Positions 21,824 through 33,799 of a stretch of DNA of 33,799 bases are shown here, one piece after another; positions within the stretch are counted from its first letter, which is position 1, and each line of letters begins with the position of its first letter. Source of the stretch: a virus (taxonomy: Duplodnaviria > Heunggongvirae > Uroviricota > Caudoviricetes). The DNA is taken from the IMG/VR virus record IMGVR_UViG_2537561934_000004; one strand, written 5' to 3'. The notes beneath the pieces were generated by a model. That model did not search any database. It saw only the letters and a list, made by a program, of their open reading frames with translations, and was not told the origin of the DNA. The position numbers and the translations under genes were made by a program.

Positions 21824-22239
21824 GGGCTTTCAGGTGAGAACAGATCAGGCTGATGACGTCGTGTATGCAGCTTTCTCTGGCGGGCAATAATCTGGTAGAT
21901 CTGCGGCTGGGACAGGCGATACTGGCGACGCAGTTCTTCCATGTTACGACCATTGAACTGGCAGTAAAGCAAATCGTCGCGTAACGCGGTCAGGATCGTA
22001 TCGCCGCAGGGGATGTAAAACTGCCGCCCGCCCAGAAAACAGGACAGGGCAACGGCCTGTTTACGGGCAAGCTCACGGGGATTGCTGACGTTCTGGCGTT
22101 TCAGTTCGTTTTCCAGAATATCAATCAGATCAACCACTGAACGGGGCCAGCGTGATTCCAGTTCCGGGGCCGGGATGTTATCAATATGCCCGATTAACTG
22201 GCGAATTGCCGGATCGTGTTCAAATAAATCATGCTGCAT
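21817..22239 (-). CDS. C: Late transcription activator C (Mor/C family)
   Basis: 140-aa ORF, same size as Mu C; its C-terminal half (GGRQFYIPCGDTILTALRDDLLYCQFNGRN...LSQPQIYQIIARQRK) parallels Mor at 23032..23421 (GGGQVYIPRGQVLDSLIRDLRIWNDFNGRN...GVTFNTVYKAIRRMR). Confidence 0.85.
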   Translation of the reverse strand: MQHDLFEHDPAIRQLIGHIDNIPAPELESRWPRSVVDLIDILENELKRQNVSNPRELARKQAVALSCFLGGRQFYIPCGDTILTALRDDLLYCQFNGRNMEELRRQYRLSQPQIYQIIARQRKLHTRRHQPDLFSPESPK

Positions 22240-22251
22240 ATTTTCCCCCGG

Positions 22252-22371
22252 TTAACAGACAAAAAGATACACCACGGCACTGATGGTTATCAGAACCACA
22301 AGGGCAATCACTTTTATCGCATTAATCAGCGTGGACGGCCCGAAACATTCATCACTGAATTTTCTGTACAT
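22252..22371 (-). CDS. Small hydrophobic protein (39 aa)
   Basis: Hand-found ORF between the membrane-protein gene and C: MYRKFSDECFGPSTLINAIKVIALVVLITISAVVYLFVC, with one predicted transmembrane helix and a weak Shine-Dalgarno. Below the ORF-track size cutoff. Confidence 0.4.
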   Translation of the reverse strand: MYRKFSDECFGPSTLINAIKVIALVVLITISAVVYLFVC

Positions 22372-22380
22372 GGTGCCCCT

Positions 22381-22743
22381 TTACCCGAACAGACGAGCGC
22401 GAAAACGAAAGGAGAGCCAGAACGTCAGCAATCCGGCCAGCGCCCAGATGACATACTCAGGACCCGTTTTCAGTTGAGACGTTGCCATCACGGCTAATCC
22501 CAGCCCGGACAGCCCCCCCAGCCAGGTCAGAGGCCAGACGAACCGGGCAAAATGTTCAGGCACCCGGCAGCTCATTATCAGCGCATCCAGATAATCACCG
22601 GCAACACATAAAGCAACACTGAAAACCGAGGCACAGCAAAACATCAGCGCGCGCCAGCCACAAAACAGACTTATCCACAATAACAGCGCCAGTAATACCA
22701 CCGATAAAAAATCAGGCCACTGACGAGCAGAACGCTCAGACAT
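22381..22743 (-). CDS. Multi-pass membrane protein (middle operon; holin-like candidate)
   Basis: Started at ATG 22743 (MSERSARQWPDFLSVVLLALLLW...), which has a GGAG Shine-Dalgarno 8 nt upstream; three or more hydrophobic segments. The ORF-track start at 22794 lacks an obvious ribosome-binding site. Confidence 0.55.
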   Translation of the reverse strand: MSERSARQWPDFLSVVLLALLLWISLFCGWRALMFCCASVFSVALCVAGDYLDALIMSCRVPEHFARFVWPLTWLGGLSGLGLAVMATSQLKTGPEYVIWALAGLLTFWLSFRFRARLFG

Positions 22744-22954
22744 AATGTTTCTCCCTGTAAAGCAGGCAATGATGAAGAATTTCCGGCATATCAACTGACT
22801 GCCAGCCTTTCATGTAATAACTGCCGTGGGTGCCATCATGACCGGTATAGTCGCGGGGCGCAGGACGTGGCCCACCGGCGACACGGCGCAAAACCTCCTG
22901 ACGCAGCCGCTCACGTCTGCCAAGATGAAAGGATGCATTCCAGCCTTTACCCAT
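22736..22954 (-). CDS. Hypothetical protein (72 aa), first ORF after the early terminator
   Basis: ORF-track entry with a GGGGAA Shine-Dalgarno; basic, no recognised motif. Coding status uncertain. Confidence 0.4.
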   Translation of the reverse strand: MGKGWNASFHLGRRERLRQEVLRRVAGGPRPAPRDYTGHDGTHGSYYMKGWQSVDMPEILHHCLLYREKHYV

Positions 22955-23001
22955 GATGATTTTCCCCGGTACGGTTATTCATCACAGGATATTGAGGACG
23001 T

Positions 23002-23024
23002 AAAAAAAGCCGGATTAACCGGCT
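23002..23024 (-). terminator. Rho-independent terminator immediately after mor (end of early transcript)
   Basis: Minus strand reads AGCCGG-TTAAT-CCGGCT followed by TTTTTTT, starting 8 nt after the Mor stop; about 9.3 kb from the left end. Confidence 0.6.
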
Positions 23025-23031
23025 TTACTGT

Positions 23032-23421
23032 TTACAGAAGTGAGGGCTGGTACTGGCGGTATTTCAGCCGTCGCATCCGGCGAATGGCCTTGTAAACCGT
23101 ATTGAAAGTGACACCATAACGGGTGGTCAGTTCGCTGACGTTGCGACCGTTAAAATCATTCCAGATACGCAAATCCCGAATCAGCGAGTCCAGAACCTGA
23201 CCGCGTGGAATGTAGACCTGACCGCCGCCCAGATGCTTACAGATAGCCACAACAATCTCCAGTGAATGGGCAGGATCAACACCCAGCCGGGACAATTCCC
23301 CGCGTAGTAAATCGTTCAGCTCCGCCAGCAGTGCCGGAAAGCGTGACGTATCCTCTGCGGGATTGTCAAGATGTGCCAGGATGGTGTCATCCTGCAAATC
23401 ACCAAATAAATCTTCCGTCAT
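23032..23421 (-). CDS. mor: Middle operon regulator Mor (Mor/C family activator)
   Basis: 129-aa ORF (Mu Mor is 129 aa) with a C-terminal region paralleling C; last gene before the early terminator. Confidence 0.85.
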   Translation of the reverse strand: MTEDLFGDLQDDTILAHLDNPAEDTSRFPALLAELNDLLRGELSRLGVDPAHSLEIVVAICKHLGGGQVYIPRGQVLDSLIRDLRIWNDFNGRNVSELTTRYGVTFNTVYKAIRRMRRLKYRQYQPSLL

Positions 23422-23969
23422 TGTGCCATCCTCCGCGTCTTTCTGGCATGGGCATAAGCCGCCGTCATGGCATCATAGCCGCGCAGTTCACGACCGGACG
23501 GACTGACCGGCAATGGAAGCCCGTGACGGGAAAAGGCTTCACGAATACAGCGGATGTGCCACTGCTTGAGTGTTTCGAGGACTGTCAGCAGCGTGTCGCC
23601 ATGACACCACGCCAGTGTGGAAACGCCCTGTCCGCCGTTGCGTTTCGCGGTCAGGCGCTGAACATATTTATCCAGCGCCACATCACCGCCATCGGTAATA
23701 AAACCGTCTTCTGCCATCTGCTGCCAGACTTTGTACACCTTCTCGCGGGGCGTGACATGTTCCTTAAAGCGGCGACGTGGATGTTTATTCAGCTTCTTAA
23801 AGCCGCGTTCTTTCATTGCATCGAGCGTCTGTTCCAGTTGCGTAACCGTCAGCTCGCGGCAACTGGTTTTGCCCGTTTTCTGCATCAGAAAGGCGCGGTA
23901 AGTGTCATCGTCGAGTTGTAGCTCCCGACGGGCGACATGGATTAATTTAATAAGCGATGTGCGATTCAT
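23418..23969 (-). CDS. gemA: GemA-like protein (Mu gp16-like)
   Basis: Frame 23418..24137, started at internal ATG 23969 (MNRTSLIKLIHVARRELQLDDDTYRAFL...), which has a GAGGTG Shine-Dalgarno; ATGA-coupled to mor. Confidence 0.7.
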   Translation of the reverse strand: MNRTSLIKLIHVARRELQLDDDTYRAFLMQKTGKTSCRELTVTQLEQTLDAMKERGFKKLNKHPRRRFKEHVTPREKVYKVWQQMAEDGFITDGGDVALDKYVQRLTAKRNGGQGVSTLAWCHGDTLLTVLETLKQWHIRCIREAFSRHGLPLPVSPSGRELRGYDAMTAAYAHARKTRRMAQ

Positions 23970-23999
23970 TTGCTCACCTCTCATATTAAGGAATGAGAT

Positions 24000-24416
24000 A
24001 TGAAAATTGATTATGACGAGATAGCCAGAATATTTGATGTTTTTCTGGAGGCCGACACCGCATTCATTCGACTGGAAGATGTCGGCTGGGAGCGTTCTCA
24101 GCGGCACAGCGACAGCCATCAGAAGCTGGTTTTCCATCTTCTGTTGCTGGTTGAAAATGGTTTTATCAGCAACAGATATCTGGAAACAGGCACCGCAAAA
24201 AGCATTGGTCTCACCCCAACAAGCCTCGGATATTCATATTCAGGCACCAGTGTCAGACTTACACAAGATGGTCATGATTTTGCGAAAGCACTACATCAAA
24301 AACCCATTCTTGAGCGCATAAAACAGGACCTTGCCGACGCCCCGATGACGCTCGTAACAGACGTCGGCAAACAGTGGTTAACCTCGTTTCTTAAAAAGAA
24401 ACTCGGGATTGAATAG
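24000..24416 (+). CDS. Hypothetical protein (138 aa) on the strand opposite to the early operon
   Basis: ATG at 24000 preceded by AAGGAA 8 nt upstream; no internal stops. Its 3' end converges on and overlaps the 24378..24689 gene by 39 nt. No family recognised. Confidence 0.6.
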   Translation: MKIDYDEIARIFDVFLEADTAFIRLEDVGWERSQRHSDSHQKLVFHLLLLVENGFISNRYLETGTAKSIGLTPTSLGYSYSGTSVRLTQDGHDFAKALHQKPILERIKQDLADAPMTLVTDVGKQWLTSFLKKKLGIE

Positions 24417-24689
24417 TTCCCGGTTCATACGTTGCAGCACATCAAGGGCGGCGACAGCCGCCACTTTATCGTTACCATCAGCAATAGTGCGGAGATTTTC
24501 AATAATCCAGTGAGGACTCAGTGACTCAGCAATAATGCCAAACCGGTACGCCATGACTTCATCAATAGCTTTTTCATGAGACGGCTCATATACAAAATTC
24601 ACAAAGTCATGCACTTCTTTTTTCGGCAAACCACCGGCAATCAGCAGGGCGGCAAGCTCTTCTGATTTTGAAAATACACCATTATTCAT
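24378..24689 (-). CDS. Hypothetical early protein (about 103 aa)
   Basis: The ORF-track start at 24704 is a GTG; the first ATG is 24689 (MNNGVFSKSEELAALLIAGG...), preceded by GAAGGTGAG and abutting the upstream stop. Confidence 0.5.
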   Translation of the reverse strand: MNNGVFSKSEELAALLIAGGLPKKEVHDFVNFVYEPSHEKAIDEVMAYRFGIIAESLSPHWIIENLRTIADGNDKVAAVAALDVLQRMNRELFNPEFLFKKRG

Positions 24690-24690
24690 A

Positions 24691-25449
24691 TCACTCACCT
24701 TCACAATTCATGCACGCCGTGTCATCGCCCATATCGCAGTGGTTGCATTTCTGCCCACCACAATGAGGGCACTCTTTCAGATATTCAGGGTTTTCATTAC
24801 CGCAGGTCGGGCATTCCTGTTTCACCGTGGTGAATGTCCCCAGCCACGAATACGAATTTTCACCGACTGTCTTTTTCCCCGTTATTTCTGAATCAGAACT
24901 AATACAGTGTTTTTCAACCCATGCCACACGTGCTGAATTCAGGTGGCATCTGGCCAATTTGCTTTCGTTTCTGTAATGTTTGCTGTCCCGGTTAAATGGC
25001 AATTTCTCATTCAGCCCTGCTGAGATAAAGTCCGCATGTAATTGTTCTAATGCGGCTTCACTGTCTGCACCGGTTGATTCAAAATAATCGTAAGCATTGG
25101 CACATAATCCGGCAGCCCGGGTAAATACATCATCGCCCGTCTCCATTGCCCCATTCTTTAACCATCGGTTGTAGGCTGTATAAAAACTATAAAGTTGCTT
25201 TCTGATACAGGTAGTGGCAGTTCCGCCATTAACTGACGCTGGCGTAACATAGCCAGCTCTGCATAAAGCAGAACGAAGTATATCCAGAACCTGCCAGGCA
25301 TCTTCTCCTTCAATCACGCTACAGTTTTTGTACACCAGGACGTCCCGGCCACAACTTTTATCAATACCCCAGTCTTCAAATTTCACAACCAGCCTCCTGC
25401 ACCACACCCGGTGCTGATGAAAAATCAATGATGAGATAACGCAGTACAT
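24691..25449 (-). CDS. Hypothetical early protein with a C-terminal four-CxxC cluster
   Basis: C-terminus CPTCGNENPEYLKECPHCGGQKCNHCDMGDDTACMNCEGE. The ATG at 25449 overlaps the upstream gene by 74 nt; a GTG at 25386 has an AGGAGG 6 nt upstream and is the more likely start (231 aa). Confidence 0.6.
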   Translation of the reverse strand: MYCVISSLIFHQHRVWCRRLVVKFEDWGIDKSCGRDVLVYKNCSVIEGEDAWQVLDILRSALCRAGYVTPASVNGGTATTCIRKQLYSFYTAYNRWLKNGAMETGDDVFTRAAGLCANAYDYFESTGADSEAALEQLHADFISAGLNEKLPFNRDSKHYRNESKLARCHLNSARVAWVEKHCISSDSEITGKKTVGENSYSWLGTFTTVKQECPTCGNENPEYLKECPHCGGQKCNHCDMGDDTACMNCEGE

Positions 25450-25915
25450 GGTCGGTGATATTCCAGGCGCTGGAACTGCAAATAAACCGCCCCAGCCGGA
25501 TATCGATATAAGCCATCACAAAACGGGGCATTCCCTGTTTGCACATCTCGTCATCCACTTCTGCAACGATGTGAACGGACTCACAGGTCAGTACGCCTGT
25601 CGCAAACTCTTTTGCCAGTGCGGGGATGGTATTACCTTCCACCCAGGGTAATGAGCGACGCCAGTTGCACCACACCGCATCATCAACAGCAGGCTGCTCA
25701 GTTGCGTTTCGTCTTACCGGCGGCGTCTGACGCGGGCGCGGAACGTCATAAAATCCGTTGCATTCGGTGAGCACTCCGGCATCAACCGCATCACGCAGGA
25801 AATACACCATTGCGGAGGGTGGCATCTGCATTTTTTCAGCCAGAACCCCGCAGGTCAGGCGTCCGTAAGCCCGTAATAATGTGCTGACACCATTCAGAAT
25901 TTTTGCATCAACCAT
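25376..25915 (-). CDS. Hypothetical early protein with a possible N-terminal winged-helix domain
   Basis: 179-aa ORF with GAGGAA Shine-Dalgarno; the helix-turn-helix call on residues ~1-55 (LAEKMQMPPSAMVYFLRDAVDAGVL) is a visual impression only; Cys/Trp-rich C-terminal domain of unknown function. Confidence 0.6.
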   Translation of the reverse strand: MVDAKILNGVSTLLRAYGRLTCGVLAEKMQMPPSAMVYFLRDAVDAGVLTECNGFYDVPRPRQTPPVRRNATEQPAVDDAVWCNWRRSLPWVEGNTIPALAKEFATGVLTCESVHIVAEVDDEMCKQGMPRFVMAYIDIRLGRFICSSSAWNITDHVLRYLIIDFSSAPGVVQEAGCEI

Positions 25916-26013
25916 GTTTTATTCCTCAGTAATCTGTTTCAGGCGCGAGCAATCCCCTGACGCATCGCGCCATAATTAAAAGAATGTGAATTAATTAAAT
26001 ATTAATGGTGGTA

Positions 26014-26538
26014 TTAAATACCGGCTTCCTGTTCAAACGGAATAATGGAAAAATCTTCAATTCCCGATTTAACCGTAATTCCGGCAACACCTGCGACGGC
26101 TTTTGGTTCCAGTAAAATCGCCTCCTTGTTGATTTCCTGCTTCGTGCGAATAAAGCGTTGCAGGCCAAGACGCTCCAGCGTTTCCATCACTGCATCCATA
26201 CCACGAATACTTACTGATGGTGGACGGACCCGCCACGATACATCACCGGTGACAAGATTCGCCGTCTTCACTTTGCCGCCGTTCGTCAGTTCGTCGCGGT
26301 TCGCTTCACACCATCCCTGAACGCCTTTTGAAAGGGTTTCAATATCGGTTTTAATCGGTGCAATCCGGGCCGCAAATTTCTCCGTAATTTCCGCGATGGC
26401 ATCATTCATTTCCGTTTCCAGACGTGATGCTTCGCGCTGTAAATCCCCGATGCGTTTAATATCGGTAATCACCGCATCGCGGTTTTGTGGCACATAAGCC
26501 GCTGCGGCACTCTTGATACGTTTTGCTGGTTTAGCCAT
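26014..26538 (-). CDS. gam: Host-nuclease inhibitor Gam (DNA end-binding)
   Basis: 174-aa ORF of Mu Gam length in the Mu gam position; the sequence MAKPAKRIKSAAAAYVPQNRD... matches Mu Gam as I recall it. Confidence 0.9.
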   Translation of the reverse strand: MAKPAKRIKSAAAAYVPQNRDAVITDIKRIGDLQREASRLETEMNDAIAEITEKFAARIAPIKTDIETLSKGVQGWCEANRDELTNGGKVKTANLVTGDVSWRVRPPSVSIRGMDAVMETLERLGLQRFIRTKQEINKEAILLEPKAVAGVAGITVKSGIEDFSIIPFEQEAGI

Positions 26539-26557
26539 AAATTAAAGCTCCTGTTAA

Positions 26558-26857
26558 TTAATATCCGCTGTATACAATGCTGGATACAGCTCGATTGCTT
26601 AATTCCATCTTTCGGGCAATGACATGAATATCCAGCCCTTCTTTATAAAGTTCACGACATAAATATTTGTCGTGTTCACTGATTCGGTATACACACAATG
26701 ATATTCCGTGCCTTCTGGCATGTGCCCGGAGGGCGGTTGTGGCGACTTTCAGTTTTTCCGCCATTTCTTCAACGGTCATTTTCCCGACGTTGGCTTCGAT
26801 AAATTCCCGGTCTTCGCGTGACCAGCGCTTACGATTACACTTCATGTCAGCCACCAT
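26558..26857 (-). CDS. Small early protein with two helix-turn-helix-like segments
   Basis: 99-aa ORF between B and gam; segments WSREDREFIEANVGKMTVEEMAEKLKV and ISEHDKYLCRELYKEGLDIHVIARKMELS look like HTH repeats. Confidence 0.55.
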   Translation of the reverse strand: MVADMKCNRKRWSREDREFIEANVGKMTVEEMAEKLKVATTALRAHARRHGISLCVYRISEHDKYLCRELYKEGLDIHVIARKMELSNRAVSSIVYSGY

Positions 26858-27277
26858 TCAGTACAGCAGAGGCTCGCGCAGTGATGCCGGAATATGCCGC
26901 AGCGATAACTGAACCGCTTTCAGGGCAAGCGAGGAATAACAGCAGCGCGCCCAGCCTTTTGCCATTAACCGGTAATCGCGCCAGATACGCTGCCACATTT
27001 CACGGGCCTCAGGGTCTGATGCGCAGATGTATTCCCGGTCCATGACGTACTCCCATAAATCCACGTTGAACGCACCGCCAAATGCAATGGCGCGGGATAT
27101 GCTTTCGCCGCAATAACGCGCACAAATGCTGTAATGGTCGAAAGCAATCAGGTAAGTCTTTTCACCACAATCATCAACTTTCCGGGCGCAAATAAACTCG
27201 CGTAATTCACCACCGTTGTTATTGCGTTCCTGAATTCGGATTAATGCCTGAATTTCATTTCGGATTTTGACGTTCAT
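26858..27277 (-). CDS. Hypothetical early protein (139 aa)
   Basis: ORF abutting the downstream gene within the B-gam block; no recognised motif. Confidence 0.55.
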   Translation of the reverse strand: MNVKIRNEIQALIRIQERNNNGGELREFICARKVDDCGEKTYLIAFDHYSICARYCGESISRAIAFGGAFNVDLWEYVMDREYICASDPEAREMWQRIWRDYRLMAKGWARCCYSSLALKAVQLSLRHIPASLREPLLY

Positions 27278-27297
27278 TGTCAGCGTTCCTTTGCGAA

Positions 27298-27567
27298 TTA
27301 ATGTCTGGCTGTATTCGGGTTATAGCTGAATAATTCCCCCTCGGCTTCCAGCCCAAGCTCCCTGGCTGATTTCAACAACTCCTCGGTCGCTTTTTTAATG
27401 ATTTCAGGAGCCATGCTCTTGATGATGCCTGCCATTACATCATGTGGCCCGGTCTGGTCCTCAGGTGAGGATTCTTCCAGTCGCACATTCATATTTACGG
27501 CAAAACCTCCATTTTCCTGAAACTCAATATTTCTTGTATTGTTAAATTCAAAGATTACTTTTGCCAT
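27298..27567 (-). CDS. Hypothetical early protein (89 aa), acidic
   Basis: ORF in the B-gam block; no recognised motif. Confidence 0.55.
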   Translation of the reverse strand: MAKVIFEFNNTRNIEFQENGGFAVNMNVRLEESSPEDQTGPHDVMAGIIKSMAPEIIKKATEELLKSARELGLEAEGELFSYNPNTARH

Positions 27568-27587
27568 TTTTCTTCTCCTTATTGATT

Positions 27588-27833
27588 CTAAATAACTGCG
27601 CTGGCTTTTACCTTCGCGCCTTTTACCTGCTTAAAGAAAACTGCGCTGCACCACGGACAACATGTCAGGGAATCCCAAATTTCCTTTTCGTGTGAGCATT
27701 GCGTCATAATCTGTTCACCGCATCCGGGGCATTTATATGTCGTCAGCGGCACCCCGTGGCACTGACAGTGTTTAACCCATTCAATATATTTTTCAGCTTT
27801 AATACACATCGTTATCTCCAGATAATCTGACAA
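27588..27833 (-). CDS. Cys-rich putative zinc-binding small protein
   Basis: CxC and CPGC/CCPWC motifs (HCQCHG...KCPGCGEQ...CCPWC). Likely start is ATG 27809 (MCIKAEK...), which avoids overlap with the upstream gene. Confidence 0.55.
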
Positions 27834-28039
27834 CCATTAAGACGGGCCGTCCATACAGAACGGGCCACCCCGGACTTATGCTCCATAATCCTGACCGCGT
27901 TTTTTACCAGTTCCACCGGTGGGTAAGTGATTTCAAGAATCGGACGCGCCACGCCGAGATATGATTCATTTACATGACTCCCGCGCGCCTGTAACCAGTT
28001 CTGCGCATCCGTTGCCATTTTTATATTTCGGGCCATCAT
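27812..28039 (-). CDS. Kil-like small protein (first gene after B)
   Basis: 75-aa ORF at the position Mu kil occupies; assignment is by position and size only. Confidence 0.5.
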
Positions 28040-28054
28040 AATTTCTTCTCCTTC

Positions 28055-28993
28055 TTAATTACGCAGCAGCGTTGAAATATCAACGTCCAGGTCTAATTCA
28101 CGGAAAGCCTGACGCAGATAATCTTCGTTAACACGCTCACCTTTACCGTGAGCCGTCATGGCGGCAAGGCGAAGTGAATGATTCAGAATGCGAAGCGCAC
28201 CTGGTTTCTGCGCAATCTGCTGTAATAACTCCAGTTCATTTTCGCCGTTAATCTGCCAGGCATCCGCAATAGCTTTTACATCGGCTTTTTTTGTTTTATT
28301 AATTGCAGTGCGCTTTGCAATACGGGAAAACAGACGGGCAAATTCAACCGTTCTGTTACCCCCCGTCATATTTGAATAAACCCGGTGATTTCCCATCAGC
28401 ACAAGGCCAGTGCGGGTTGATTCCTGTAACAGGCGGAGTTCTTCCAGAACTTCGGCACCAAGATGATCAGCTTCGTCGATGATAACCAGCCCCTGTGTAC
28501 CTTCAAGGCGACGTCGCAGGGCACGGGAAAGTGGCCCTTTACGGCGTGGTGCGTCATTCATTCCCAGCTCAAACGCCAGTTCAGTAAGACATTCCAGAAC
28601 ACTGGCGCAGGATGGCGTAATGGTGATCATCCAGACATTGTTATTGGTGCGGCGATATTCACGGGCCGCTTCGGTTTTGCCCACACCAGGATTGCCACAT
28701 ACAACAGCAATACTTTCAGTCAGGCTGGCAAAACGCATACTTGTCCAGATTTGTTTTACCGTCTGCGTTTCCACAAAGCGGGGCGGTTCAGGTAGTTCTG
28801 CAACTGCATGATATTTTTCCAGCCAGCGTTGCAGCATTTGTGAAACACGCTCGTTATCCCCGTTGTACTTATCATTGATAAAACTACTGATAGTTCCGGT
28901 AGAAAGTCCGCTCTCAAGAGCAATTTGTTTAAAGGTGGTTTCTTCATTTTCTACAAGCGTGCGCAGTCCTGCGCGAATATCGGAAATATTCAT
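28055..28993 (-). CDS. B: Transposition target-DNA activator MuB (AAA+ ATPase)
   Basis: 312-aa ORF (Mu B is 312 aa) with Walker A GNPGVGKT and Walker B-like IIDEAD; immediately downstream of the transposase. Confidence 0.9.
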   Translation of the reverse strand: MNISDIRAGLRTLVENEETTFKQIALESGLSTGTISSFINDKYNGDNERVSQMLQRWLEKYHAVAELPEPPRFVETQTVKQIWTSMRFASLTESIAVVCGNPGVGKTEAAREYRRTNNNVWMITITPSCASVLECLTELAFELGMNDAPRRKGPLSRALRRRLEGTQGLVIIDEADHLGAEVLEELRLLQESTRTGLVLMGNHRVYSNMTGGNRTVEFARLFSRIAKRTAINKTKKADVKAIADAWQINGENELELLQQIAQKPGALRILNHSLRLAAMTAHGKGERVNEDYLRQAFRELDLDVDISTLLRN

Positions 28994-29031: not shown

Positions 29032-31020
29032 TTAAATGGCTTTTTTACGTCTGTTCTGTTCCAGAATATCCAGCGAATGATTCAGATATTCATCACGCTC
29101 AGTTTCGTATTCATCATCACGCTCCTGATTCTTCACCCGTTCCGTATTACCGGAAGGCCGGAAAATGCCGACAATTCGTGATTCTGGTGCTTCAGGTTCG
29201 GCTATCTGCGGCAGCAGCTCTGCCACTTCCAGTGCATCCATTTGTTTCTGTGCCTTAATCGCTGCTTTCGTCGCAGATTTCAGTTGTTTCTGGCGGCGGC
29301 GATATTCACGGCCTGCCGCAGCATCATTAAACGCAACAGGTGCCAGACATTCCGCTTCACAGATAAACCGACCGTCCAGGGTGTAACAATAAACCGTGCT
29401 GTGTAGCTGCTGCGGATCAAACCTGACCACAACTTTTTTCACGCCGGCATTCATTAATGCCATGTTGTAATAAACGTTTTTCGCGCCTTTAAGGGAGCCG
29501 CCAACTTTAAGCGTAAACTCGCCTTTGCGTGAAACGTTCACCGCCTCGGCAGGCAGTAACAGCATCCGTTTTTGTTCTTCGGTTGGCTTACGCACAATCG
29601 TTCTGGCGTATTCACGCTCGAAAACATCATCAAACGAGAGTTTGCCCCCGCACATTTCTGTTTCACGGCCTGTTCTGGCATTGAACATCGCCACACCTTC
29701 GGCAAGGTTTTTCAGAAACAGCTCTGCATCAACAGCGCGGTTGCCATAGTTATCAGGTTTTGCCTGCGGATTTGGCCCCGTATATGCGCCAGCCAGTGCC
29801 GGATGCTTATCAACGTATTCCTCAAGCCCACCAACACCGAAAGCACGTTCAACAGGTTTTGCCTGGCCCCAGCCTTTACCGGCAACAACGCTTGTCCAGT
29901 GCATTTTCGCACCCATCAGTAAAAACAATCCCTTTGGATCGTCTTCTTTCACCTTAAAGCGGTAGCGATTGGGCGCGCCTCCCGTCAGCCATTTATTCGC
30001 AGCACCACGGGTGTTATCAATGGTGATGTGAAAATCCTCCGGGATACCGTAGCGAGTCACAACATCCATGAACGAGAGGCGAATTGAATCAATGTTCTCG
30101 CTCACATCGCAGCGCCAGCCCAGAATTTTTCGGGTTTTCACATCCTGCCAGAACCATGTTTTCGGGCGGATCACATCACCGTTAAACCAGCGTACAAAGA
30201 CGTTATGCAGATAACCGTCGCCGTTGATCCACTGCATGGCGTCCAGGTGTTCCACAGTTCGCTGCTGTGCCGGTATCAGATGCATCAGTGCATGTTCACC
30301 TTCACGACAGGCAACAACCATTGCCTCGTCCAGTTGCTGAATCCGGCGAAAGGCCGTGGCACGGGAGGGAATACTCCAGCCATGCTCGCGGGCTGCCAGT
30401 TCCAGACGCTCATAACATTTGCGGAAGGCGGGTTTTTCCGGTCGCAGATAATCTGCAATCAGAAACTGCCAGGCATCCTCGTCAAATTCACTTTTGTGAA
30501 CATTGCGACGGGATGCACCACGTCCATCAACAAGTGCAGCCGCCCAGTCAGGCTTCGCAAACTTCTGTACCTGGTAATACTTGTCCCGCAAAGTGGATGC
30601 GCTGACCTGGTAATGCCCTGCAACGGTCGCAAAAGCCGTTTTCGTTGAAATCCCCTGGTTCAGCATTTCGTCTGCAGCCTGAACCGCAGGCAACCATTTT
30701 TCAGCAAGTCTGCGCTGGGAATCGCTGGCTTTATCCCATTTGCTCCACAGCACCTCACGATCATAATCATGGGCTTCCAGCGTGGGGCGGGCGATTTCAA
30801 AACGGCCCAGGCTTGTTTCAATTCTCCCTTGTTGCAACAGAATTTCAGCACGTAATGCGACAGGGAATGATTTGATATTGAATTCAAATGATACACCTTT
30901 AGTCCCTGCAACCTGTCTGAACTCCCAGCCTTCTCTTTGTGCCTTACGTGTAATGTTAGTGGCTTGCTTTGGTAAACCTGCCAAACCGAGCAACTCTTTT
31001 GCTGTATACCATTCTTTCAT
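29032..31020 (-). CDS. A: DDE transposase MuA
   Basis: 662-aa ORF. Acidic residues at D268 (WINGDGY), D335 (HITIDNTRG) and E391 (KPVERAF) sit one residue before MuA D269/D336/E392. The C-terminus ends QNRRKKAI, the MuA tail recognised by ClpX. Confidence 0.95.
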
Positions 31021-31434: not shown

Positions 31435-31959
31435 ATGATGTCTTTTGAAATCAAAGAATGGTTTAATGCGAAAGAGCTGGAAGGGATGCCTGGTGTACCA
31501 AAGTTGGCGACTAACATTACCAGGAAAGCTGTGGCGGAAGATTGGGTAAAACGTCAGCGTCACGGTGGGAAAGGTGTCGCTTATGAGTATCACATCAACA
31601 GTCTGCCAGAAGAAACACGCAGGGCCATTAAAGGAGCCTCACTTTCTGATAAACCAGTGCATACATCAATCGCCCATACAGTTGATGAGAGGCTAATTTA
31701 TGCAATGAGCTTCTTAACACCAGATGAGCAGGCCGCAGCTGTGGAGATCATTCGTGTGGCAGGGATTAAAGGACTTATGCCTACAATTGTCAGTAAAGAT
31801 AAGGCATTAGAGGCATTAGGGATTACTGTGGAGCAACAGAAAACCCTGCAAACTCTTCAGGCATTACCACCGGAAAAAGTGAGAGAGATTTTGTCTCAGT
31901 ATGAAGGCAAAGAACATAATTTCCCTGTAAGAGAAAACGATGTAAAGAAAGCTGTATAA
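31435..31959 (+). CDS. c: Mu-type repressor (c)
   Basis: 174-aa ORF divergent from ner. Its N-terminus ([61 protein letters not shown]) parallels the transposase N-terminus ([60 protein letters not shown]). Confidence 0.8.
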   Translation: MMSFEIKEWFNAKELEGMPGVPKLATNITRKAVAEDWVKRQRHGGKGVAYEYHINSLPEETRRAIKGASLSDKPVHTSIAHTVDERLIYAMSFLTPDEQAAAVEIIRVAGIKGLMPTIVSKDKALEALGITVEQQKTLQTLQALPPEKVREILSQYEGKEHNFPVRENDVKKAV

Positions 31960-32124: not shown

Positions 32125-32298
32125 GCTTTTCGTGTCTTTAATGAATCAAAAGCTGTTTCCAACAATCTTTCGCGTTTCAAGATGTAACGGCTAAAATCTG
32201 TCCTACAGGCTTGCAAGCCCCACTAAATCTAATCCCGCCAAATCCCGAATAATCCAATGTCCTCCCGGTTTTTTTCGTACTTCAAGTGAATCAATACA
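32125..32298 (-). repeat. Prophage left end with three MuA-binding repeats (L1, L2, L3)
   Basis: On the minus strand: L1 TGTATTGATTCACTTGAAGTACGAAAAAA (32298..32270), L2 CATCTTGAAACGCGAAAG (32184..32167), L3 TGATTCATTAAAGACACGAAAAGC (32148..32125). All carry the (A/C)CGAAA(A) core and the spacing (about 0-28, 114-131, 150-173 bp from the end) matches Mu attL. Confidence 0.8.
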
Positions 32299-32706
32299 CC
32301 CGATTATATTTCCCGCTACGGGAAGCCAGAAACGATCGACGATTTAAAGCAACATATTTGCCTGGGATTCACTGAACCCGCTTCCCTCAATACCTGGCCG
32401 ATAGCCCGTAGCGATGGACAATTACATGAGGTGAAGTACGGTTTGTCATCCAATAGTGGGGAAACACTGAAACAGCTTTGCCTGAGTGGCAACGGGATTG
32501 CGTGTTTGTCCGACTACATGATCGACAAAGAAATCGCTCGCGGAGAATTGGTGGAGTTAATGGCAGATAAAGTGTTGCCAGTGGAAATGCCATTCAGTGC
32601 CGTCTATTACAGCGACCGTGCGGTAAGTACGCGCATCCGGGCTTTTATCGATTTCCTTAGCGAGCATGTAAAAACAGCTCCCGGAGGAGCTGTCAGAGAG
32701 GCTTAA
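32299..32706 (+). pseudogene. yafC: LysR-type regulator gene (yafC-like) truncated at its 5' end by the prophage
   Basis: The frame translating ...[56 protein letters not shown]... is open from the prophage junction to the stop at 32706. It has no start codon or N-terminal helix-turn-helix; only the C-terminal effector domain remains. Convergent with dkgB as in E. coli. Confidence 0.75.
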
Positions 32707-33506
32707 TCCCATTCAGGAGCCAGACCTTCCGGGCTAACCAGGCGGTCGTTGCAATCCAGTGCGGCGATCGCTTTTTTATCTTCGGCATCAAGCTGTAAAT
32801 TTTGTGCCTTAAGATTACTTTCCAGGTTTTTACGTTTAGTAGAAGAAGGAATTACTGAGTAACCTTCCCCCATAGCCCACGCCAGAATCACTTGTGCCGG
32901 AGTCGCATTGTGTTTAGCTGCGATACGAGCAATAACCTCATCTTTCAGGGCCTTACCATACGCCAGCGTCATATAGGAAGTAATATGGATGCCGTGCTGT
33001 TTAGCCCAGGCAACCACTTTACGGTTTTGCAGATAAGGAGAGAGTTCAATCTGGTTAGTAGCGATGTTTTCAGCACCAACAGCAGCAATCGCTTTTTCCA
33101 TCAACGGGATCGTGAAGTTGGAAATACCGATCTCACGCGTCAGCCCTTGTTTTTTGGCTTCCAGCAGCGCCTGCATAAACTCTTCAACAGAGACTTCATC
33201 GTTTGGTGACGGCCAGTGGATTAGCGTCAGATCAACATAATCGGTACGCAATTTTTGCAGGCTCTCTTTCAGACTTGGGATCAATTTGTCTTTGCTGAGA
33301 TTTTCAATCCAGATTTTAGTGGTGATGTAGAGTTCATGACGTGGCACGCCACTTTCTGCAATCGCCTGACCTACTGCGGCTTCGTTATCATAGATTTGTG
33401 CGGTATCAATTGCGCGATAACCAAGTTCAAGCGCCGTTATCACAGATGAAATAACAACGTCGTCTTTCAGACGGAAAGTACCTAAACCAAATGCAGGGAT
33501 AGCCAT
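32703..33506 (-). CDS. dkgB: Aldo-keto reductase, 2,5-diketo-D-gluconate reductase B
   Basis: 267-aa [21 protein letters not shown]... with aldo-keto reductase motifs ([27 protein letters not shown]); length equals E. coli DkgB. Confidence 0.9.
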
Positions 33507-33628
33507 AATATGCCTCTTTTAATGCTATTTTCGTTAACTGAGGTGATTATGGGCTTCAGACTGTTGAGGAAAAAGAGCGTAAAATGCAGAGGATTTTTGC
33601 GATTCTGGCAATAATAGATATACAGACG

Positions 33629-33656
33629 AAAAAAAACCTCGAGCGTTAACTCGAGG
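33629..33656 (-). terminator. Rho-independent terminator downstream of tRNA-Asp
   Basis: Minus strand reads CCTCGAG-TTAACG-CTCGAGG followed by TTTTTTTT, about 12 nt after the tRNA 3' end. Confidence 0.7.
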
Positions 33657-33668
33657 CTTCTTAATAAG

Positions 33669-33745
33669 TGGCGGAACGGACGGGACTCGAACCCGCGACC
33701 CCCTGCGTGACAGGCAGGTATTCTAACCGACTGAACTACCGCTCC
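33669..33745 (-). tRNA. aspU: tRNA-Asp (anticodon GUC)
   Basis: Minus strand reads GGAGCGGTAGTTCAGTCGGTTAGAATACCTGCCTGTCACGCAGGGGGTCGCGGGTTCGAGTCCCGTCCGTTCCGCCA (77 nt, encoded CCA), anticodon loop CUGUCAC. The symbol aspU is inferred from adjacency to dkgB; it could be another Asp copy. Confidence 0.9.
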
Positions 33746-33799
33746 ACCGAATTCTTTTACAACCACCGGTTTTATGACCGGCTTACTGCTTAATTTGAT

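What the first reader, a model, noticed from the sequence alone, without database searches (positions are those of the whole stretch)
24378..25915. Non-Mu-looking three-gene block between gam and gemA, including a four-CxxC protein and a putative winged-helix protein
B, gam, gemA and mor on either side are Mu-like, but the three tightly coupled leftward ORFs between them (about 179, 231-252 and 103 aa) look unrelated to anything I recall from Mu. One ends in four CxxC pairs (a likely double zinc ribbon) and one appears to begin with a winged helix. This semi-essential early region is where Mu-type phages carry host-interaction genes such as gam, so a swapped module here is a candidate anti-defence or host-takeover cassette.
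Basis: partly seen in the sequence, partly recalled or inferred. Interest (0 to 1): 0.65.

Follow-up and report, generated by a model that had tools for sequence, protein, structure and literature searches.

The report
Ordinary, reshuffled Mu early accessory genes
The three genes between gam and gemA are not foreign to Mu: they are the Mu gp11 gene, a reshuffled gene ending in the Mu gp13 zinc ribbon, and a gene shared with Shigella phage SfMu, all of unknown function and already present in identical form in public E. coli prophage sequences.

Summary
The window is a Mu-type prophage in an E. coli chromosome, with attL at 32298. The three leftward ORFs are real, tightly coupled genes, but "non-Mu-looking" is mostly wrong.

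- **ORF1 (179 aa)** is Mu gp11: 92.5% identity and a Pfam Gp11_C match. Its N-terminus does model as a winged helix.
- **ORF2** is best read as 231 aa, starting at GTG 25386.
  - Its last ~55 aa, with the four CxxC pairs, are Mu gp13 (94% identity), fused in frame.
  - Only its first ~175 aa replace Mu gp12. They consist of a short N-module and a ~100-aa helical domain.
  - That domain is common in phages and prophages (559 clusters) but has no Pfam family and no PDB fold match.
- **ORF3 (103 aa)** is SfMu gp14 (87-88% identity).

The gam-to-gemA stretch is 100% identical in two IMG/VR contigs. The 231-aa protein is catalogued as phrog_6418 and WP_244588664.1. All three genes are intact in relatives; dN/dS is 0.1-0.3 for gp11 and about 0.3 (0.55 in one near-identical copy) for the fusion.

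No defence (PADLOC) or named family matched. No anti-defence library was available, so an anti-defence role is untested. An overlooked antisense DUF2513-like gene (24000..24416) replaces Mu gp14 and gp15. Overall this is an ordinary mosaic variant of Mu's semi-essential early region.

The parts
25376..25915 (-). Mu gp11 orthologue (179 aa). It has an N-terminal winged-helix-like domain (aa 1-57, window 25745..25915) and a Gp11_C domain (aa 90-166, window 25418..25648).
24691..25386 (-). 231-aa chimeric protein occupying the gp12 and gp13 slots. The start is GTG 25386; the alternative ATG 25449 would give 252 aa.
   Evidence: AGGAGG lies 6 nt upstream of the GTG. phrog_6418 matches 1-231 of 231 at E 3.5e-166. 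The same protein is WP_244588664.1 in two E. coli genomes and P0001, which differs by 1 aa and has 138 member sequences. It is intact in all copies; dN/dS is about 0.3 against the 93%-identical copies.
25231..25386 (-). N-module of the 231-aa protein (aa 1-52).
   Evidence: It occurs on its own or attached to other C-termini: P0128 (112 aa, 69% identity) and P0138 (64 aa). The model is low to moderate confidence, pLDDT 53-73.
24901..25203 (-). Core helical domain of the 231-aa protein (aa ~62-162). This is a widespread phage and prophage domain with no Pfam family.
24694..24864 (-). Mu gp13-type module with four CxxC pairs (a presumed two-zinc ribbon), fused in frame (aa 175-231). The stop codon is at 24691..24693.
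   Evidence: It is 94% identical to Mu, SfMu and YpM gp13. DNA similarity to Mu spans 24680..24855 at 95.5%. It matches phrog_5584. Eight Cys plus G, P, K, D, G and D are invariant in 12 relatives. Pfam zinc-ribbon and DnaJ CXXCXGXG matches are all below cutoff.
24378..24689 (-). 103-aa orthologue of SfMu gp14 / vB_YpM_5 gp21. Phage Mu itself lacks this gene.
   Evidence: It is 87-88% identical over 100 aa and matches phrog_1988 at 1-103 of 106. DNA similarity to SfMu and YpM_5 spans 24438..24862 at 95%. Its C-terminal ~20 aa differ because the recombination junction is at 24438. There is no Pfam, NCBIfam, PADLOC or PDB match.
24000..24416 (+). It occupies the place of Mu gp14 and gp15, and overlaps the 3' end of the 103-aa gene by 39 nt.
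   Evidence: It matches phrog_585 at E 3.2e-31. A 99%-identical DNA copy in E. coli 22KM0354 is annotated 'DUF2513 domain-containing protein', WP_000687312.1. Pfam DUF2513 scores only 15.9 bits against a cutoff of 29.6. AAGGA lies upstream of its ATG.
26014..26538 (-). gam (flank, for context).
   Evidence: 100% identical to Mu Gam; Pfam Phage_Mu_Gam.
23418..23970 (-). gemA (flank, for context). The true start is at 23970, not the 239-aa ORF start at 24137.
   Evidence: 95.6% identical to Mu GemA over 183 aa; Pfam GemA. The start and its Shine-Dalgarno sequence were read.

Best explanation
The block is an ordinary mosaic variant of the semi-essential early region of an E. coli Mu-type prophage. 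It is transcribed leftward as part of the early (Pe) operon and translated as a coupled string.

- Gene 1 is the Mu gp11 orthologue (winged helix plus Gp11_C domain).
- Gene 2 fills the gp12 slot with a different cargo: a short N-module and a widespread ~100-aa phage helical domain. A recombination junction inside the first codons of gp13 removed its start codon. The cargo now reads straight into the gp13 four-CxxC zinc ribbon, giving one 231-aa protein.
- Gene 3 is the SfMu-type gp14.

Shown: orthology, module boundaries, intactness, purifying selection, and recurrence of the same arrangement in other prophages.

Inferred, with rough probabilities:

- The proteins are small non-enzymatic binding proteins (winged helix, zinc ribbon, helical bundle) made early in lytic growth. 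They act on host or phage macromolecules and are dispensable in the laboratory, like the rest of this region (about 0.5).
- The zinc ribbon is a constant partner or anchor for a variable cargo, encoded either as a separate overlapping gene (Mu gp12/gp13) or as a fusion, as here (about 0.3).
For: - **Orthology and mosaic boundaries.** BLASTP and BLASTN against Mu, SfMu and vB_YpM_5; Pfam Gp11_C; PHROG matches for every ORF, including a full-length match to phrog_6418.
- **Same arrangement elsewhere.** The gam-to-gemA stretch (3,121 bp) is 100% identical in IMG/VR contigs L025 and L051, 98.75% in L021 and 97.1% in L018. The 231-aa protein is annotated with the same start in E. coli RefSeq genomes and in Logan contigs.
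- **Slot behaviour.** 69 loci (the window plus IMG/VR and Logan contigs) contain both gam and gemA. Of these, 47 carry recognisable modules and 42 have gp11 first. The next slot holds gp12+gp13 (13 loci), the core domain fused to gp13 (7 loci, counting the window), or the core domain alone (5 loci).
- **Residents of Mu-like prophages.** The stand-alone 129-aa core protein P0004 lies between gp11 and gemA, and the index lists it in 395 blocks. Another gp13-type ribbon fused to an unrelated N-terminus (P0012) lies in the same interval of a further Mu-like prophage.
- **Ribbon as a module.** Five proteins carry the ribbon behind N-terminal regions that match none of the block's other modules: P0012, P0122, P0131, P0147 and P0171.
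- **Real genes.** There are no internal stops in any copy. dN/dS is 0.12-0.31 for gp11 and 0.29-0.31 for the fusion against 93%-identical copies. Shine-Dalgarno sequences and overlapping stop/start codons are present.
- **Literature.** The semi-essential genes are largely of unknown function and are transcribed at a low level from Pe even in lysogens (PMC3820752).
Against: - Nothing here tests function.
- The gp11 model is of moderate confidence overall (mean pLDDT 64).
- The partner/anchor idea could instead be a by-product of recombination at a conserved gene boundary, with no functional link.
- No complete E. coli RefSeq genome carries the whole combination in one piece: 0 of 5,426 cover at least 80% of the query. 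IMG/VR contigs do carry it.
Confidence: 0.85

Rival explanations
1. The block, or at least the swapped gp12-slot cargo fused to the zinc ribbon, is an anti-defence or host-takeover cassette. Variation in the slot reflects an arms race with host immunity.
For: - The slot is hypervariable among close relatives, while the flanks stay 93-100% identical.
- The core domain is phage-restricted, multi-copy in large coliphages, and fused to other accessory-region domains such as DUF551 and a dATP/dGTP pyrophosphohydrolase.
- It is expressed early, next to gam, a known host-nuclease inhibitor.
Against: - There is no match to any named anti-restriction or defence-related family. The Pfam Lar hit has E 2.1, and there were no PADLOC hits.
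- No anti-defence library was available, and no literature was found.
- Hypervariability is equally expected for neutral mosaicism of dispensable genes.
- Most of the block (gp11, gp13, SfMu gp14) is conserved rather than swapped.
Confidence: 0.15
2. The proteins act on Mu's own DNA transactions rather than on the host. gp11 (winged helix) and the zinc-ribbon protein would be accessory DNA-binding factors that boost Mu replication or transposition or tune early and middle transcription. This corresponds to the classical 'arm' (amplified replication) phenotype, which I recall from the older Mu literature as mapping near gam; that recollection was not verified here.
For: - gp11 has a winged-helix fold.
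- gp11 is nearly universal as the first gene after gam in close relatives, in 42 of 47 loci with recognisable modules, and is under purifying selection.
- The neighbours gam, gemA and mor all deal with DNA ends, DNA topology or transcription.
Against: - Winged helices also bind RNA and proteins; the top hits include SelB, eS25 and APC2.
- The region is classed as semi-essential, with functions largely unknown (PMC3820752).
- No DNA target or repeated operator-like site was looked for or found.
- The variable gp12 slot argues against a core replication role for gene 2.
Confidence: 0.15
3. The 231-aa ORF is a decaying or artefactual fusion: a frameshift, deletion or assembly error joined a dead gp12-slot gene to gp13.
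For: - Mu encodes gp13 as a separate 60-aa protein whose start overlaps the gp12 stop.
- The fusion lacks the gp13 ATG.
Against: - The same in-frame fusion is present and intact in independent assemblies. These are two RefSeq genomes, two Logan contigs and four IMG/VR contigs, at 93-100% DNA identity.
- The P0001 cluster has 138 member sequences.
- dN/dS is about 0.3 against the 93%-identical copies, with no internal stops.
- A full-length PHROG family exists.
- Other proteins also carry this ribbon as a C-terminal module.
Confidence: 0.03

Closest known systems
Phage Mu gp11 (Mup11; Pfam PF25754 Gp11_C; phrog_1949)
   Same: It is 92.5% identical over 174 aa. It holds the same position directly after gam, behind the same 98-nt spacer, and has the same length class (179 vs 176 aa).
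   Different: The last ~8 residues differ (…SSAPGVVQEAGCEI vs …CSPAPAAVQEVA), because the mosaic junction at 25393 lies inside the 3' end of the gene. The function of Mu gp11 is itself unknown.
Phage Mu gp13 (Mup13, 60 aa; phrog_5584)
   Same: It is 94% identical over 54-56 aa. All eight Cys and the motif CPxCGN…EY…CPxC…KCxxCDMGDD…CxxC are kept, and it sits in the same place upstream of the gp14-type genes.
   Different: Here it is not a separate gene. The start codon and three codons are missing, and it forms the C-terminus of a 231-aa protein.
Phage Mu gp12 (Mup12; Pfam PF26885 Phage_Mu_Gp12 as listed; phrog_2314)
   Same: It occupies the same slot between gp11 and gp13, has a similar size (176 aa vs ~175 aa of cargo), and is tightly coupled to its neighbours.
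   Different: There is no detectable sequence similarity, and the PHROGs differ (phrog_6418/2510 vs phrog_2314). This is a replacement, not an orthologue.
Shigella phage SfMu gp14 / Yersinia phage vB_YpM_5 gp21 (phrog_1988)
   Same: It is 87-88% identical over 100 aa and lies directly downstream of the gp13-type ribbon.
   Different: The C-terminal ~20 residues differ, with the junction at 24438. Downstream lies an antisense DUF2513-like gene instead of gp15 and gp16 of SfMu.
Stand-alone ~100-130-aa core-domain proteins of phages and prophages (phrog_2510; for example P0002-P0005), and the same domain inside modular lambdoid accessory proteins
   Same: The helical domain is the same, at 50-73% identity to the enterobacterial prophage copies and 30-40% to copies in lytic coliphages. 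In Mu-like prophages it sits in the same slot after gp11.
   Different: Here the domain carries an extra N-module and a C-terminal zinc ribbon. Elsewhere it stands alone, occurs in tandem, or is fused to DUF551 or a dATP/dGTP pyrophosphohydrolase domain. No member has a known function.

Membership tests
Mu Gp11 family (PF25754) | Gp11_C domain scoring above Pfam's gathering score | tested here: met
   133.7 bits against a cutoff of 27, E 2.9e-39, aa 90-166.
Mu Gp11 family (PF25754) | Full-length similarity to Mu gp11 and position directly downstream of gam | tested here: met
   92.5% identity over 174 of 179 aa. The order gam, 98-nt spacer, gp11 is as in Mu. gp11 is the first gene after gam in 42 of 47 related loci with recognisable modules.
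Mu gp13 family (phrog_5584) | Conserved four-CxxC motif with eight invariant Cys | tested here: met
   94% identity to Mu gp13. phrog_5584 matches at E 1.1e-38. The eight Cys are invariant in 12 relatives.
Mu gp13 family (phrog_5584) | Stand-alone small protein (~60 aa) with its own start codon | tested here: not met
   There is no in-frame ATG at the junction, and the reading frame is continuous from GTG 25386.
Mu gp12 family (phrog_2314 / PF26885) | Sequence similarity to Mu gp12 | tested here: not met
   There is no BLASTP hit at E<=0.01. The PHROGs differ. There is no DNA similarity across 24863..25392.
phrog_6418 (231-aa Mu-like prophage protein) | Full-length match to the profile | tested here: met
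   1-231 of 231, E 3.5e-166. It has the same length as, and 93% DNA identity to, RefSeq WP_244588664.1.
SfMu gp14 family (phrog_1988) | Full-length similarity and position downstream of the gp13-type ribbon | tested here: met
   87-88% identity over 100 aa. phrog_1988 matches 1-103 of 106 at E 5.1e-52. Synteny was seen.
Winged helix-turn-helix fold (gp11 N-terminus) | Three-helix bundle plus beta-hairpin wing, superposable on known winged helices | tested here: met
Winged helix-turn-helix fold (gp11 N-terminus) | Sequence-specific DNA binding | not testable with these tools
   This needs EMSA or ChIP.
Double zinc ribbon (Pfam DZR PF12773 and other zinc-ribbon families) | Score above the gathering threshold | tested here: not met
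   DZR 14.6 bits against 27.3, Zn_Ribbon_1 15.8 against 25, DnaJ_CXXCXGXG 16.3 against 32.7. The Cys pattern fits a two-zinc ribbon, but membership of a named family is not shown.
Known anti-phage defence systems (PADLOC) and named restriction-alleviation proteins | Profile match | tested here: not met
   None of the ORFs has a PADLOC hit. The Lar_restr_allev hit has E 2.1 and is not significant. No dedicated anti-defence library was available.
DUF2513 (PF10711), for the antisense ORF 24000..24416 | Score above Pfam's gathering threshold | tested here: inconclusive
   Pfam gives 15.9 bits against a cutoff of 29.6 (E 0.017). RefSeq names the 99%-identical copy 'DUF2513 domain-containing protein', and phrog_585 matches at E 3.2e-31.

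The most novel reading that the evidence does not exclude
The gp12/gp13 position of Mu-type phages is a cargo-plus-anchor system. A conserved two-zinc ribbon (gp13) docks onto a fixed host or phage target. It delivers interchangeable cargo domains, encoded either as an overlapping upstream gene (Mu gp12) or fused to it, as with the 231-aa protein here or P0012 elsewhere. The widespread ~100-aa helical domain would then be a new family of phage inhibitors of a host function, possibly an immune system.
Probability: 0.12. Interest if true: 0.55.

Novelty: already known. Interest (0 to 1): 0.2.

Why it matters
This finding should be filed as ordinary rather than as a foreign cassette. Every gene in the block belongs to the known accessory gene pool of enterobacterial Mu-type phages, and the exact arrangement is already in public catalogues.

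The remaining value is modest:

- It documents how the gam-gemA interval is built from exchangeable modules, with junctions inside gene ends.
- It shows that Mu's own gp13 is the four-CxxC protein.
- It flags a common phage helical domain (559 clusters at 50% identity) that has no Pfam family, no solved fold relative and no known function.

If someone later finds a phenotype for Mu gp11, gp12 or gp13, this natural fusion would be a useful hint that the gp12-slot protein and the ribbon work together.

Tried and rejected
**Searches that gave nothing**

- Pfam, NCBIfam and PADLOC scans gave nothing for the 231-aa, 103-aa and antisense proteins beyond sub-threshold zinc-ribbon and DUF2513 hits.
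- PDB sequence searches on all four proteins gave only chance-level hits, E>0.3.
- BFVD gave only uncharacterised phage proteins.
- The AlphaFold-database fold library was not available.
- Literature searches found no functional study of these genes. Terms tried were gp11/gp12, Mup10-15, DUF2513, semi-essential region, SfMu/D108 and Mu anti-defence. The Gabija preprint mentions only Gam and GemA.

**Readings considered and rejected**

- The 252-aa ATG start. It lies deep inside gp11, has no Shine-Dalgarno sequence, and other annotations do not use it.
- The 108-aa GTG start for ORF3.
- The 239-aa form of gemA.
- An internal start for a separate gp13. There is only one in-frame GTG, at V188, with no Shine-Dalgarno sequence.
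- A pseudogene or artefact origin for the fusion.

**Other**

- A consensus scan found no sigma-70 promoter for the antisense gene. This is not informative either way.
Full report
**Context.** The window is a Mu-type prophage in an E. coli chromosome.
- The exact Mu left-end sequence lies at 32272..32298 on the minus strand.
- DNA from 32299 onward is E. coli tRNA-Asp/dkgB/yafC at 99.9-100% identity.
- The early operon runs leftward: c repressor (+ strand, 31435..31959), A (29032..31020), B (28055..28993), kil, gp6, a gp7 replacement, gp8, gp9, gam, the block in question, gemA, mor, gp18, gp19 and C.
- The flanking proteins are 96-100% identical to those of phage Mu: gam 100%, kil 100%, mor 99.2%, gp9 99%, gemA 95.6%.

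**The observation.** Three minus-strand ORFs do fill the gam-gemA interval.
- ORF1 (25376..25915, 179 aa) has GAGGA 7 nt before its ATG.
- ORF2 is listed as 252 aa from ATG 25449. The convincing start is GTG 25386 (231 aa).
  - It has AGGAGG 6 nt upstream and overlaps the ORF1 stop by 11 nt.
  - It is the start used for the same protein in RefSeq (WP_244588664.1) and in Logan contigs.
  - phrog_6418 matches 1-231 of 231.
- ORF3 starts at ATG 24689, 1 nt after the ORF2 stop and behind AGGTGA, giving 103 aa.
- The four CxxC pairs sit at residues 192-228 of the 231-aa form, window 24703..24813.

**Relation to Mu.** The claim that the block looks unrelated to Mu does not hold.
- By BLASTP, ORF1 is Mu gp11 (92.5% over 174 aa).
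- The last 54-56 aa of ORF2 are Mu/SfMu gp13 (94-95%).
- ORF3 is SfMu gp14 / vB_YpM_5 gp21 (87-88% over 100 aa), a gene of the genus Muvirus that Mu itself lacks.
- ORF1 also hits Pfam PF25754, "Phage Mu Gp11 C-terminal domain", at 133.7 bits.
- At DNA level, Mu-like sequence covers 22038..23969, 24680..24855, 25393..27292 and 27535..28512. SfMu-like sequence adds 24438..24862.
- Only three patches are non-Mu:
  - 24863..25392, the gp12 slot, which is the first ~175 aa of ORF2.
  - 23970..24437, next to gemA.
  - 27293..27534, a gp7 replacement outside the finding.

**Anatomy of the 231-aa protein.** It has three modules.
- *Residues 1-52.* This short module also occurs alone or with other C-termini (P0128, P0138).
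- *Residues ~62-162.* This is a confidently modelled all-helical domain (pLDDT 84-98, above 95 for most of it).
  - It matches 559 clusters (50% identity level) at E<=1e-3 among 1.84 billion representatives. Most are stand-alone proteins of 100-115 aa; some are tandem or fused.
  - A profile search gave 86 clusters, all named "hypothetical" or "prophage protein" and without a Pfam domain.
  - tblastn finds it in 239 phage records, with up to five places per genome in large coliphages.
  - It has no Pfam match and no PDB sequence relative.
  - In other proteins it is fused to DUF551 or to a dATP/dGTP pyrophosphohydrolase domain.
- *Residues 175-231.* This is the gp13 ribbon.
  - In 12 diverse relatives, all eight Cys plus G, P, K, D, G and D are invariant.
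  - The module occurs alone (53-70 aa) or at the C-terminus behind N-terminal regions that match none of the block's other modules.
  - One such fusion, P0012, lies in the same interval of a different Mu-like prophage.
- *The junction.* Comparing it with Mu shows that the gp13 ATG and three codons are missing. The upstream frame therefore runs straight into gp13.

**Comparative genomics of the interval.** I fetched 80 IMG/VR loci with a Gam relative and mapped reference modules onto them.
- 69 loci contain both gam and gemA (counting the window and two Logan contigs). Of these, 47 carry recognisable modules.
- gp11 comes first in 42 of the 47.
- The next slot holds Mu-type gp12 plus gp13 (13 loci), the core domain fused to gp13 (7 loci, counting the window), or the stand-alone core domain (5 loci). 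gp13 follows gp11 directly in 2 loci.
- Further downstream come various mixes of the SfMu-gp14 type, the Mu gp14 type, and an antisense gene (gp15 type, a 79-aa type, or DUF2513-like).
- The window's full architecture recurs in four IMG/VR contigs. Over the 3,121-bp gam-to-gemA stretch, two are 100% identical, one 98.75% and one 97.1%.
- The stand-alone 129-aa core protein P0004 lies between gp11 and gemA, and the index lists it in 395 blocks.
- No complete E. coli RefSeq genome has the whole combination in one piece. Each half is present at 94-99% identity.
- The interval is thus a well-populated mosaic, and this window is one catalogued combination.

**Are the genes alive?** Yes.
- All copies are intact.
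- dN/dS is 0.12-0.31 for gp11 against 20 relatives.
- dN/dS is 0.29-0.31 for the 231-aa gene against the 93%-identical copies, and 0.55 against a 97.6%-identical copy with few changes.
- The 103-aa gene has too few substitutions in full-length comparisons to judge.
- The P0001 cluster of the fusion has 138 member sequences. This rules out decay or an assembly artefact for practical purposes.

**Winged helix.**
- The gp11 model built on 43 homologues has mean pLDDT 64: about 60 in the N-terminal part and 78-90 in the Gp11_C part.
- Helices at 4-17, 22-29 and 33-45 are followed by the segment VLTECNGFYDV.
- Pfam HTH hits are sub-threshold.
- I accept the fold assignment with moderate confidence. 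What it binds is unknown.

**Function.**
- None of the proteins matches a defence (PADLOC) profile or any named restriction-alleviation family; no anti-defence library was available.
- I found no paper on them.
- The literature states that the semi-essential genes are largely of unknown function and are transcribed at a low level from Pe even in lysogens (PMC3820752).
- My best inference is that these are small, early, non-enzymatic binding proteins acting on host or phage macromolecules (about 0.5).
- The ribbon would be a constant partner for variable cargo (about 0.3).
- A specific anti-defence role remains possible (about 0.15), as does a role in Mu's own DNA transactions (about 0.15). These are inferences, not results.

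**Overlooked gene.**
- A plus-strand ORF (24000..24416, 138 aa) lies antisense to the operon. It starts 29 nt from the gemA start and overlaps the 3' end of the 103-aa gene by 39 nt.
- It matches phrog_585.
- In a 99%-identical E. coli copy it is annotated as a DUF2513 domain protein. Pfam's own threshold is not reached.
- It takes the place of Mu gp14 and the likewise antisense gp15.

**Verdict.**
- Novelty is "already known".
- Interest is low (0.2).

Noticed in passing
window 24000..24416 (+): A 138-aa antisense ORF lies inside the early operon. It matches phrog_585, and RefSeq names a 99%-identical E. coli copy 'DUF2513 domain-containing protein'. It replaces Mu gp14 and gp15, starts 29 nt from the gemA start, and overlaps the 103-aa gene by 39 nt. 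Its orientation suggests it could be expressed in the lysogen. The consensus scan found no sigma-70 promoter.
   Followed up: partly
window 27298..27567 (-): An 89-aa ORF replaces Mu gp7, within non-Mu DNA at 27293..27534. It matches phrog_2230 over its full length. A weak Pfam RraB hit (E 0.0098, 16.9 bits) is below the cutoff of 23.3.
   Followed up: partly
window 32272..32298 (-) and 32299..33799: The exact Mu left-end sequence ends at 32298. E. coli chromosomal DNA follows (tRNA-Asp, dkgB, yafC), so the window is an integrated prophage. Its right end lies beyond the window start.
   Followed up: yes
window ~25939..25968 (-), in the 98-nt gam-gp11 spacer: An inverted repeat GGCGCGA, 16 nt, TCGCGCC lies in the spacer, with no T-run after it. 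SfMu and some E. coli prophages carry an extra DUF5420 gene at this position.
   Followed up: no
L090 5001..5816 (Mu-like prophage in GCA_917191115.1): A 271-aa protein (P0012) carries the same gp13-type four-CxxC ribbon behind an unrelated N-terminal region. It lies in the same interval, downstream of gp11, a Mu-type gp12 and a 108-aa ORF. The ribbon is therefore a recurrent fusion partner.
   Followed up: partly
L091-L094 4001..4390: In a common type of Mu-like prophage, the whole gam-gemA interval is just gp11 plus a stand-alone 129-aa core-domain protein (P0004, listed in 395 blocks of the collection).
   Followed up: partly
window 23418..24137 (-): The mechanical ORF for gemA is 239 aa. 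The real gene starts at 23970 (183 aa, as in Mu), so the upstream 56 codons are read-through of the ORF finder and overlap the antisense gene.
   Followed up: yes
Tool note: Mu gp12 gave no hit in the local Pfam copy. The precomputed annotations nevertheless list PF26885 Phage_Mu_Gp12, so the local library lacks some recent Mu families.
   Followed up: no
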